The position numbers are program-made. Below are positions 57,382 through 59,519 of a DNA stretch of 64,000 bases, piece after piece. The stretch is taken from NCBI RefSeq assembly GCF_056746865.1, contig NZ_CM163382.1. The stretch is one strand, 5' to 3'. Position 1 is the stretch's first letter. Each line of letters starts with the position of its first letter.

Positions 57382-59519
57382 TAATTACCATCCGGAACGA
57401 GACCGCTTTATCCGGACTTTGCCGGATGCAGAACGTCAGGTTCTTAATGCCATAGTCGTTTGCAGACACCAGTTGATCGCAATGCCAGTTACTGAGCAAA
57501 ACAGGTTGTACCCGGCTCACCCGCAAAGCAAAAAAAAACATTAATATCATCAAAGCGCTGGAAGATGAACACCCACATCCGGAACCATTTTAAAGAACCA
57601 GCTGAGCACCTGAGCAACATTAAAGGCATCGGCGTAATGACTACGGCGGTGCTGGTAGCCTGTATGCGCAAACTGCTGACCATCCTGAATGCGATACTCA
57701 GAAAGAACAAAGAAATGTAATGAATCCTGCCATCAGGTTACTCCATAATTTTGTTGGTCAAGACAGTTAATTACGTGACGTATGCTCAGGCACCGGATGC
57801 CGTTTTACAGGGCTCACCTGCCATCCAGTAGACGCCCCGGCCCACGACTGCAACCATAATTACGTTGCCCAGAACCGTCATGCTGCTTCGTCTCATACTT
57901 CACGAGATAACAGGCTCTCTCCATGGCTTTCTGCATCGCTTCCACATCACCACGCTTGACCCAGAGAACAGCGGCTTCACCCGGCTTTTTGTCTGAAGCC
58001 TTCCTGGTTTCAGAACATCCACCCGACAAAGGCGTATCATCGGAAGAAGGGCGAGCATCAGATGATGTCGGTTTACGGAAAGGCGTCCGCCTGGAAAAAT
58101 GAACCAGTCCATTACCCTGCCAGGGCTCGAGATGCAGAGCACTGCACCATGCCAGCTTGATCAGCGTCGCCAGCGAAGAAGGAACGGTGAAATCCCCTGG
58201 CGAGCACCAGGTATCTTTGTTGAGCAGTAATATCACGTGATAATGTTTCCTGCCTTTTTCCTTGCCAAACTCCCGACACCAGAAATAACGCAGAGTGGTT
58301 GCACGCACACGCTTGTTGGCACGTCGTTTTTTCCGCTGGTAAGCCTGAATTTTTGCTTTCAGGGATTCGAAAAAACGAGAAATCACTGCTGAATCTAAAT
58401 CGGTATCCATAATAGTGGCAGGCATATACTCAGGAAAACGTAAATCCACCCGAATTAACGAGACGGCACGGTGCTGCACTAGGGCACTGTCGAGAAGGCT
58501 GTCAAAACGGGATAACCAGTAAGCATTGTGTATTGGTTGATTCATGATGAGAGATCTCCGTTGATTTGGATTGACTTCACATCATTAATCACTGCGGTAA
58601 AACTTTACGGCATCCCGCCATTGAGCAACGCCAATGGCTCCTGATTAAAACAGAATGAATCCCCCACGAAGAAAAGATAAACCTACACGCAGGGTAAAAC
58701 ACACAACAACGGCATAAATGGTTTTTAAAAACTACAAAGCCCGAAGGGAAACGGATCAACAGAACGTGCAAACAAAACACCAAAAACGCAATCAGAACGC
58801 TTTCTGCTGCTGTGAATCAACAACAATACCAAAACCTACAGCTTAACCACAAAACTCAATCACAGAGCCGAATAGCGCGTTTAAAACCTGTTTACAGATA
58901 ACCCTGCCCCGAGAACAAAAACCACCAACATCAGAATCGATTTTCTTATCCTGAAAACGTTACTTTTCAACACACCATAAAAACGATTAACCATCGATAA
59001 CGTAAATCTCATCTGAATCAAAACACCAGAACCAATCATCACGCTTTTTCTGAAAAGAGCCTTATGATGAAGATAATCACCTTGCACTGAGAAAAAACAC
59101 CAGGGCCAGTTAATCATCTCATCAATCTTATCGCTACAAAATCATCCATAAAACCATTTAACAAAATCATCGTAAGCACACAGTAAATCACGCCAGGTTA
59201 TCTCAGCCGGATTTGCGTTTTACATAAAAACACTTGTCTCAGGTTAACGACTAAAAACACGAAAACTCATAAAAGGTTAAATGTAACATCAGAAAAATAG
59301 AATATCATATTGATTGCTTAAACAGGAAAGATTGTTTTGTAGTAGCATTAAGCTGATTTTAGTTAACGTAAAAACAGGACTGACAGGTTTACTAAACTGG
59401 ATGTGTATCAGACAAAGCAATGTGTATAACAATACTTAATGAAAACACTTGTAGAATTGTTTATGAAAACATGTGTATGTCTGGTAAAACACTTAGGGAA
59501 GGTGCGAACAAGTCCCTGA

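What the first reader, a model, noticed from the sequence alone, without database searches (positions are those of the whole stretch)
58546..59394. ORF-free A/C-rich tract between the YfjJ-like gene and the repeat array
About 850 bp with no ORF of 60 aa or more and a strong A+C bias on the plus strand (e.g. ...ACAAAACACCAAAAACGCAATCAGAACG...CAACAACAATACCAAAACCTACAGC...). Together with 53429..55024 this suggests strand-asymmetric non-coding DNA is a feature of this element.
Basis: seen in the sequence. Interest (0 to 1): 0.35.

Follow-up and report, generated by a model that had tools for sequence, protein, structure and literature searches.

The report
Skewed non-coding spacer in genomic island
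This is a real, strongly A/C-rich stretch of about 700 bp of non-coding DNA in a common E. coli genomic island, but it evolves like weakly constrained, cryptically repetitive spacer whose skew is fading, so it is a modest curiosity and not a new functional element.

Summary
The composition claim holds. Region 58546-59394 is 62.3% A+C, the most extreme 849-nt stretch of the window, and the skewed core is about 58621-59300. "No ORF of 60 aa or more" is not strictly true: two minus-strand ORFs of 64 and 78 aa exist, but they are not conserved and match no family.

The tract lies upstream of a YfjJ/YagK-family gene with an HUH-nuclease fold, in a CP4-57-like island. It is followed by an iteron-like repeat array that IS5 has split.

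Alignable copies occur in 1873 of 5426 complete E. coli genomes. Two sequence clades are about 77% identical, which is less than the four-fold sites of the adjacent gene (85-93%). Indels break every reading frame.

I found no Rfam match, no excess RNA stability on either strand, no covariation and no conserved sigma-70 promoter.

Polarised substitutions run 73 AC-to-GT against 29 GT-to-AC, with strand-symmetric per-site rates, so the skew is an eroding relic. The tract uses fewer distinct k-mers than shuffles. It carries six same-strand copies of the array word AAAACAC (0.8 expected).

Best reading: a decayed, slippage-prone extension of the neighbouring repeat array that serves as a spacer in a divergent control region. 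Interest is low to moderate.

The parts
57814..58545 (-). YfjJ/YagK-family ('inovirus Gp2 family') gene of 243 aa. It has an HUH-nuclease fold, and the tract lies directly upstream of it.
58546..58620 (.). Near-invariant proximal upstream block. It contains the ribosome-binding site (GGAG on the minus strand) and an imperfect dyad, CGGTAAAACTTTACGG, at 58595-58610. It is probably the promoter or operator of the leftward gene.
   Evidence: Between-clade identity is 0.86-0.98 here against 0.4-0.9 further on; the alignment is. A paralogous copy lies at window 52763-52830. No consensus sigma-70 promoter was found. The dyad was read directly from the sequence.
58621..59300 (+). Core of the A/C-rich tract (G/T-rich on the minus strand). 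It is non-coding, cryptically repetitive, rich in indels, and carries AAAACAC at 58696, 58774, 59020, 59094, 59227 and 59254, all on the plus strand.
   Evidence: Composition. K-mer poverty against dinucleotide shuffles (k=4-7, P<=0.002). AAAACAC occurs 6 times against 0.77 expected, and 9 of the 21 window-wide matches cluster in 58696-60741. Frames are not conserved. Substitution spectrum.
59301..59399 (.). Transition zone between the tract and the array. It has no A/C skew and holds degenerate array-like copies.
   Evidence: Composition. Repeat D2, 59219-59248 against 59363-59392. Alignment.
59400..59496 (+). Left part of the iteron-like direct-repeat array. Its words are ATGTGTAT and AAAACACTT(A/G).
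   Evidence: Copy number varies by whole units among relatives.
59497..60691 (+). IS5 insertion of 1195 bp that splits the array. The TTAG target duplication lies at 59493-59496 and 60692-60695.
   Evidence: Terminal repeats and duplication were read. The uninterrupted relative L001 lacks the insertion.
60692..60816 (+). Right part of the repeat array. It ends in a conserved -10-like TATAGT at 60811-60816.
   Evidence: A plus-strand promoter-like hit lies at L001 10049-10077.
60925..60936 (+). CTCTGGAATTAT, a 12-mer conserved well beyond alignable homology. It lies outside the finding and marks where the deeply conserved cis-element of the gap sits.
   Evidence: CTCTGGARTTAT occurs exactly once in 16 of 26 fetched loci. 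In every locus whose context I inspected it lies in this intergenic region, including Providencia, L021 and L023; near-matches occur in Brenneria and in K-12 upstream of yagK.

Best explanation
The tract is weakly constrained spacer DNA inside a roughly 1.75-kb divergent control region of a CP4-57-like genomic island. On one side is the leftward YfjJ-like HUH-nuclease gene. On the other are an iteron-like repeat array, a rightward promoter-like site and the cargo/GTPase module.

The A/C bias is most likely inherited. The sequence is built from a small vocabulary of A/C-rich words (AAAAC, AATCA, ACACCA, and the array half-site AAAACAC), all in one orientation, as expected for an old repeat array that has been degenerating by slippage and point mutation.

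Shown here: the tract does not code for protein, does not form a conserved RNA structure, evolves faster than neighbouring synonymous sites, and is losing its skew under strand-symmetric mutation.

Inferred, not shown: any residual function is at the DNA level. It may hold the proximal operator about 850 bp from the array, and it may offer low-affinity sites for the island protein that reads AAAACAC/GTAAAAC words and for nucleoid proteins such as H-NS (GC about 38%).
For: 1. Cryptic repetitiveness. The tract has fewer distinct 4- to 7-mers than 1000 dinucleotide-preserving shuffles (P<=0.002). A coding control (P=0.51) and the right half of the gap (P=0.16) do not show this. Over-represented words are AAAAC (17 against 6.9), AATCA (10 against 3.1) and ACACCA (4 against 0.7).

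2. The array word AAAACAC occurs 6 times against 0.77 expected, always on the plus strand, with no GTGTTTT. Relatives carry 1-6 copies against about 0.45 expected. Two copies are kept in both clades. The same word recurs in the array and in the non-alignable Providencia intergenic region.

3. Evolution is fast and indel-rich. Clades A and B are 77-80% identical in the tract, against 85-93% at four-fold sites of the adjacent gene. L005 carries a (CACCAT)4 expansion.

4. The skew is decaying. There are 73 AC-to-GT changes against 29 GT-to-AC (binomial P=1.6e-5 against equality, and P=0.30 against the ratio expected from site numbers). Per-site rates are C>T 0.206 against G>A 0.207, and A>G 0.095 against T>C 0.082.

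5. Coding and RNA roles are not supported.

6. A widespread natural variant replaces 58721-59007 with an unrelated 1155-bp cassette. IS1 and IS5 insertions are also tolerated in the gap.
Against: The tract is not an overt repeat array. Only one 34-nt segment is clearly duplicated (58770-58803 against 59016-59047, 79% identity). Only two of the six AAAACAC copies are conserved between clades. An unbiased maximum-7-mer test is not significant (P=0.18).

The length of about 850-900 bp is retained in both clades despite 23% divergence. That is unexpected for purely neutral bacterial DNA and hints at a constraint I have not identified.

No binding protein has been shown. Parsimony polarisation on 9 recombining sequences is approximate.
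Confidence: 0.45

Rival explanations
1. The tract is a long untranslated leader of the YfjJ-like operon. Transcription would start near the array and run leftward through the tract, giving a G/U-rich, C-poor RNA that is a poor substrate for Rho and so lets a roughly 900-nt untranslated leader be read through.
For: The minus strand of the tract (T 0.39, G 0.23, A 0.23, C 0.15) is skewed in the same direction (T>A, G>C) as the sense-strand four-fold sites of the YfjJ-like gene (T 0.35, G 0.30, C 0.23, A 0.12). No terminator-like hairpin lies in the tract on the minus strand. No convincing promoter was found in the proximal block.
Against: No conserved minus-strand promoter was found at the distal end. 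The only near-invariant sequence is the 75 bp next to the start codon, which is where a promoter or operator is expected. C-poverty of the minus strand is being lost: plus-strand A>G runs 26 against G>A 18, and C>T 33 against T>C 11. RNA folding shows no signal (z -0.22). Part of the tract is replaced in natural variants.
Confidence: 0.2
2. The tract is a plus-strand Rho-loading (rut-like) zone. Any rightward transcript entering it would be C-rich, G-poor and almost unstructured, so Rho would terminate it. This would insulate the array and rightward promoter from read-through or antisense transcription.
For: Interval 58749-59241 is the second-longest plus-strand stretch of the window with C/G>=2 and C>=20%. 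The plus-strand RNA folds at only -104 kcal/mol over 701 nt, about -0.15 kcal/mol per nt.
Against: No conserved plus-strand promoter lies upstream. The C excess is eroding (C>T 33 against T>C 11). Similar C>G stretches occur elsewhere in the window. Distant relatives lack the feature.
Confidence: 0.1
3. The skew is a mutational fossil of single-stranded DNA exposure. In an episomal, rolling-circle past driven by the neighbouring HUH protein, the minus strand would have been displaced. It would then have accumulated C-to-T and A-to-G deamination changes, becoming G/T-rich like the vertebrate mitochondrial H strand. Since chromosomal capture the asymmetry has been decaying.
For: The neighbouring gene has an HUH fold and motifs, and it sits next to an iteron-like array and a deeply conserved 12-mer. 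An amino/keto (A+C against G+T) skew is the signature expected from deamination of one strand; this rests on established knowledge of mtDNA strand asymmetry, not on a test here. Present-day substitution is symmetric and the skew is decaying, which fits a relic.
Against: The skew is confined to about 700 bp and is not element-wide. Four-fold sites of flanking genes give a mixed picture once codon-usage baselines are allowed for. The cryptic repetitiveness is not explained. No evidence exists that these islands replicate by rolling circle.
Confidence: 0.1
4. The tract is a decayed protein-coding gene.
For: PGAP annotates short 'hypothetical proteins' of 57-82 aa on the plus strand in some relatives. 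Two minus-strand ORFs of 64 and 78 aa are present in the window.
Against: ORF positions and frames differ between close relatives. For example, the window reads TKHQKRNQNAF where clade B reads NKTPETQPERF across the same DNA. There are no Pfam or NCBIfam hits. Many indels are not multiples of three. The composition would encode low-complexity peptides on either strand.
Confidence: 0.05

Closest known systems
Backbone of CP4-57 / CP4-6-type genomic islands of E. coli, and the Pseudomonas tmRNA islands carrying IntY, AlpA, RadC and an inovirus Gp2-like protein (PMC12595487)
   Same: The gene set and order match. A YfjJ/YagK-like gene followed by AlpA is transcribed divergently from a module of YfjP-type GTPase, DUF932, antirestriction, RadC and CbeA/CbtA, with variable cargo between them.
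   Different: K-12 CP4-57 and CP4-6 carry only 30%-identical YfjJ/YagK proteins and have no DNA match to the tract. The long A/C-rich spacer belongs to one E. coli lineage of these islands. It was not mentioned in the papers I could search.
Cryptically simple sequence (slippage-generated low-complexity DNA)
   Same: The tract uses a reduced k-mer vocabulary relative to composition-matched shuffles, shows microsatellite-like expansions and frequent small indels, and evolves faster than synonymous sites.
   Different: It sits at a fixed place in a bacterial mobile element and keeps its length over about 23% divergence. It also shares its commonest 7-mer with a neighbouring ordered repeat array.
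Iteron or Rep-binding repeat regions next to HUH initiator genes, for example plasmid and parvovirus origins (recalled from general knowledge, not tested here)
   Same: It lies next to a gene with an HUH fold and motifs, and it carries same-orientation short A/C-rich words that are also found in a true direct-repeat array nearby.
   Different: The tract itself has no regular spacing or unit structure. No nick site or binding has been shown. These islands are not known to replicate by rolling circle.
Rho utilisation (rut) regions
   Same: The plus strand is C-rich, G-poor and predicted to be unstructured over about 490 nt.
   Different: There is no evidence that the plus strand is transcribed, and the C excess is not being maintained.

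Membership tests
Protein-coding gene or pseudogene | Reading frame conserved among relatives | tested here: not met
   ORFs of 40 aa or more differ in position, strand and frame among 11 relatives, and many indels are not multiples of three.
Protein-coding gene or pseudogene | Similarity of a translation to a protein family | tested here: not met
   No Pfam or NCBIfam hit for the 64-aa and 78-aa window ORFs or for the 82-aa and 88-aa ORFs of relatives.
Known structured RNA (Rfam family) | Covariance-model match | tested here: not met
   cmscan at E<=1 over 52000-64000 gives no match inside 58546-59496.
Structured non-coding RNA (any) | Folding energy beyond composition, and compensatory changes | tested here: not met
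   z is -0.79 on the plus strand and -0.22 on the minus strand. RNAalifold on the best-conserved block gives -4.8 kcal/mol with 0 compensatory pairs.
Rho-dependent termination (rut) region | C-rich, G-poor, unstructured RNA stretch of 80 nt or more | tested here: met
   On the plus strand, 58749-59241 has C/G>=2 and the predicted structure is weak.
Rho-dependent termination (rut) region | The stretch is transcribed, and Rho-dependent 3' ends occur | not testable with these tools
   No transcript data are available, and no conserved plus-strand promoter was found.
Iteron array or Rep-binding origin | Three or more direct repeats of a defined unit at regular spacing | tested here: not met
   Within the tract only one 34-nt pair and scattered 7-mers were found. 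The criterion is met by the adjacent array at 59400-59496 plus 60692-60816.
Iteron array or Rep-binding origin | Adjacent initiator gene of the HUH class | tested here: met
   [not shown]
Iteron array or Rep-binding origin | Protein binding and a nick site | not testable with these tools
   This requires biochemistry.
Mutationally maintained strand asymmetry (as in ssDNA or mitochondrial replicons, or heavily transcribed DNA) | Strand-asymmetric substitution rates that balance the skew | tested here: not met
   C>T 0.206 against G>A 0.207 and A>G 0.095 against T>C 0.082 per site. Fluxes are 73 AC-to-GT against 29 GT-to-AC.
Xenogeneically silenced (H-NS-type) AT-rich DNA | AT content well above that of the host genome | tested here: met
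   GC is 0.34-0.44 across the tract against about 0.49 for the window.
Xenogeneically silenced (H-NS-type) AT-rich DNA | Phased A-tracts or curvature, and H-NS occupancy | tested here: inconclusive
   AAA periodicity at 11.1 bp is significant in the window and L007 (P=0.005) but not in six other relatives (P=0.07-0.79). Occupancy cannot be tested here.
CP4-57-like genomic island backbone | YfjJ/YagK-like gene divergent from the module of GTPase, DUF932, antirestriction, RadC and CbtA/CbeA | tested here: met
   Annotation of L001 and ten further relatives. The same arrangement occurs in Brenneria and Providencia.

The most novel reading that the evidence does not exclude
The tract, the iteron-like array and the deeply conserved CTCTGGARTTAT 12-mer together form the cis-acting region of an HUH-nuclease-driven process in CP4-57-like islands, such as rolling-circle replication or relaxase-like mobilisation. 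Under this reading the A+C/G+T skew records which strand is, or was, displaced as single-stranded DNA.
Probability: 0.1. Interest if true: 0.6.

Novelty: new member of a known kind. Interest (0 to 1): 0.27.

Why it matters
For the tract itself, not much. It shows that an eye-catching strand bias in bacterial non-coding DNA can be an eroding relic of repeat-derived sequence and need not signal an RNA or a gene. It also gives a simple test for telling the two apart: polarised substitution fluxes combined with k-mer vocabulary.

The surroundings matter more. About a third of complete E. coli genomes carry one to eight copies of an island control region of 1.5-2 kb that no one has annotated. That region lies next to an HUH-fold protein and contains an iteron-like array and a 12-mer conserved across genera. 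This region, not the A/C tract, is where experiments on how these defence-carrying islands are regulated or mobilised should be aimed.

Tried and rejected
- **Known RNA family:** the Rfam scan at E<=1 found nothing in the tract.
- **Structured RNA:** single-sequence folds of both strands show no excess stability. RNAalifold on the most conserved block shows no covariation.
- **Coding or decayed gene:** ORFs are not conserved and there are no family hits. The 176-aa ORF found inside the tract of some relatives has no similarity to the tract (tblastn E>1).
- **Conserved promoters:** the consensus scan and a column-wise scan over 12 aligned relatives found none in the tract.
- **Overt tandem repeats:** TRF and self-BLAST found only the neighbouring array and one 34-nt pair.
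- **A-tract phasing or curvature:** significant in two sequences and not in six others, so I did not rely on it.
- **Element-wide mutational skew at four-fold sites:** the result is mixed and confounded by codon usage.
- **Homologues outside E. coli-type elements:** no phage match and only 4 plasmid records. K-12 islands have no DNA match. The genome-contig scan returned only two close relatives.
- **Skew as a family-wide trait of YfjJ/YagK upstream regions:** rejected. It is absent from Brenneria, L021, L023, L024 and L025.
- **Literature:** full-text searches for yfjJ/yagK, for the island gene set and for exact tract strings gave nothing on this region.
- **PDB sequence search with the family profile:** no hit. 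The fold comparison was needed to see the HUH relationship.

Full report
**1. The observation**

Region 58546-59394 has A 0.393, C 0.230, G 0.148 and T 0.229, so A+C is 0.623. Over all 849-nt windows of the 64 kb the mean is 0.512 with sd 0.030. Only 0.25% of windows reach this value, and they all overlap this locus. In 100-nt steps the bias runs from about 58600 to 59300 (A+C 0.61-0.72, G down to 0.09) and stops before the repeat array.

The claim of no ORF of 60 aa or more is not literally correct. The minus strand, which is poor in A and therefore in stop codons, has ORFs at 58589-58783 (64 aa, TTG start) and 58881-59117 (78 aa, ATG start).

**2. Context**

On the right the tract runs into a direct-repeat array. 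In this window a 1195-bp IS5 (59497-60691, TTAG duplication) has split that array.

An identical but uninterrupted relative is strain W2-5, fetched as L001. It shows a 1750-nt gap without annotated features between this gene and the next CDS. The gene order is that of a CP4-57-like island: YfjI, YagK/YfjJ paralogues and an AlpA-type HTH on one side, and a GTPase, DUF932, antirestriction, RadC and CbeA/CbtA on the other.

Ten further E. coli relatives show the same layout. In each, a gap of at least 1.4 kb carries at most a short annotated hypothetical ORF. Brenneria and Providencia relatives, whose proteins are 39-43% identical, have the same divergent arrangement with shorter gaps of 745 and 449 bp.

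Islands with AlpA, RadC and an inovirus Gp2-like protein have been described as a widespread class in Pseudomonas (PMC12595487). I found no paper on this non-coding region.

**3. Distribution and rate of change**

The tract plus the left part of the array matches 1873 of 5426 complete E. coli genomes, with up to 8 places per genome. In 1345 genomes one place covers at least 80% of the query. It has no phage match and only 4 plasmid matches. K-12 lacks it.

Many hits to the whole 1750-nt gap stop inside or just after the array (query positions about 924-1014). The array therefore marks the edge of the conserved backbone.

Aligned relatives fall into two clades that are 77-80% identical in the tract. 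For the same pairs, four-fold degenerate sites of the adjacent gene are 85-93% identical. The tract therefore changes faster than synonymous sites, with many small indels and a (CACCAT)4 expansion in L005. Only the 75 bp next to the start codon are near-invariant (0.86-0.98 between clades). Blocks inside the tract range from 0.39 to 0.93.

**4. What the tract is not**

- *Coding.* ORFs differ in place, strand and frame among relatives. The same DNA is read in different frames in different lineages. No translation matches Pfam or NCBIfam.
- *A known RNA.* No Rfam match at E<=1.
- *A structured RNA.* Fold z-scores are -0.79 (plus) and -0.22 (minus). The best-conserved block has no compensatory pairs.
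- *A conserved promoter.* None was found in the tract on either strand.

**5. Is the skew maintained?**

I polarised within-clade changes using the other clade as outgroup. This gave 73 changes from A or C to G or T, against 29 in the reverse direction. That is far from balance (P=1.6e-5) but fits what the numbers of A/C and G/T sites predict under equal rates (P=0.30).

Per-site transition rates are the same on the two strands: C>T 0.206 against G>A 0.207, and A>G 0.095 against T>C 0.082. Neither selection nor a strand-biased mutation process is holding the skew in place in E. coli today. It is inherited and eroding.

The polarisation uses parsimony on nine recombining sequences, so it should be repeated at scale.

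**6. Where the skew may come from**

The tract uses fewer distinct 4- to 7-mers than dinucleotide-preserving shuffles (P<=0.002). A coding control and the right half of the gap do not show this. Over-represented words are AAAAC, AATCA, CATC and ACACCA.

AAAACAC, a word of the adjacent array, occurs six times against 0.77 expected, always on the plus strand. Nine of its 21 occurrences in the 64 kb lie in 58696-60741. Relatives carry 1-6 copies against about 0.45 expected. The non-alignable Providencia region is built from similar AAACAC words and has only 6-7% G.

This is what a repeat array made of A/C-rich units in one orientation would look like after long decay by slippage and point mutation. 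It explains the bias, the indel-rich fast evolution and the shared vocabulary.

It is not proven. Only one 34-nt segment is clearly duplicated. Only two AAAACAC copies are conserved between clades. An unbiased maximum-7-mer test is not significant (P=0.18).

**7. Dispensability**

A widespread variant (L010, L011, L016, L027) replaces 58721-59007 with an unrelated 1155-bp cassette carrying a 176-aa ORF. IS1 and IS5 insertions occur in the gap. Yet the length of about 850-900 bp is retained in both clades. I cannot explain that beyond a possible spacing requirement.

**8. Rivals**

- A minus-strand untranslated leader that is C-poor and so Rho-resistant fits the direction of the skew, which matches four-fold sites of the downstream gene. 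It lacks a distal promoter and is not being maintained.
- A plus-strand rut-like zone fits the C/G ratio and the very weak predicted structure. It lacks any sign of plus-strand transcription.
- A fossil of single-strand exposure during rolling-circle replication fits the HUH neighbour and the amino/keto nature of the skew. However, the skew is local, four-fold sites are inconclusive, and this reading does not explain the k-mer poverty.
- A decayed gene has no support.

**9.

The tract is non-coding, and its bias is shared by all alignable relatives. However, the bias is not a general trait of the family. The second region cited, 53429-55024, has A+C of only 0.546 and a different kind of asymmetry. 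The bias is also decaying.

**10. Verdict**

This is a real compositional feature and a previously undescribed but ordinary kind of sequence: weakly constrained, cryptically simple spacer in the control region of a common genomic island.

The more interesting features lie beside it. They are the HUH-fold YfjJ-like protein, the array whose copy number varies by whole units, and the 12-mer CTCTGGARTTAT. That 12-mer occurs exactly once in 16 of 26 fetched loci, and in every locus whose context I inspected it lies in this intergenic region, including genera with no other DNA similarity.

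Noticed in passing
window 60925-60936 (+); L019 4650-4661, L021 3089-3100, L023 3575-3586 and others: The 12-mer CTCTGGARTTAT occurs exactly once in 16 of 26 fetched loci. 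In the loci whose context I inspected it lies in the intergenic region upstream of the YfjJ/Gp2-like gene, about 110 nt beyond the array, including Providencia and other relatives with no alignable DNA. Brenneria has GTCTGGAGTTAT. K-12 has near-matches upstream of yagK. It is a candidate recognition or nick site, or an operator.
   Followed up: partly
[not shown]
   Followed up: yes
window 59400-59496 and 60692-60816; L001 9855-10075: The iteron-like array is built from AAAACACTT(A/G) and A(T/C)GTGTAT words. Copy number differs among relatives by whole units (indels of about 37-105 nt). It ends in a conserved -10-like TATAGT, followed by a leader of about 130 nt that stays conserved even where the downstream cargo differs.
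   Followed up: partly
window 59497-60691: IS5 (1195 bp) is inserted in the repeat array, with a TTAG target duplication at 59493-59496 and 60692-60695. The otherwise identical relative L001 lacks it. Another strain (H1) has IS1 inside the gap.
   Followed up: yes
L010 3176-4331, L011, L016, L027 (replacing window 58721-59007): A variant of the tract carries an unrelated 1155-bp cassette with a 176-aa ORF. The ORF has only a sub-threshold NikA-like Pfam hit (E=0.011). The variant occurs in several E. coli strains.
   Followed up: partly
window 52763-52830 (+): A paralogous copy, about 77% identical over 56 nt, of the near-invariant proximal block (58553-58608). It lies downstream of the 188-aa YagK/YfjJ paralogue and upstream of the 190-aa hypothetical gene. 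It is either a reused promoter/operator module or the remnant of a truncated YfjJ-like gene start.
   Followed up: partly
It contains a purine-rich block near 54200-54420 (GC skew +0.3 to +0.4). It is also cryptically repetitive (6-mer test P<0.004 on 53429-54083). It lies upstream of another YagK/YfjJ paralogue.
   Followed up: partly
L024 about 3600-3730 (minus strand of the locus); L021 about 3150-3300: Distant YfjJ-like genes also have tandem or direct repeat arrays in their upstream gaps. One example is four or five copies of a roughly 36-nt unit AATACTAACACTCTATTTATTAGTATTAATATTATT in Jinshanibacter. Arrays, not A/C skew, are therefore the recurrent feature of the family.
   Followed up: no
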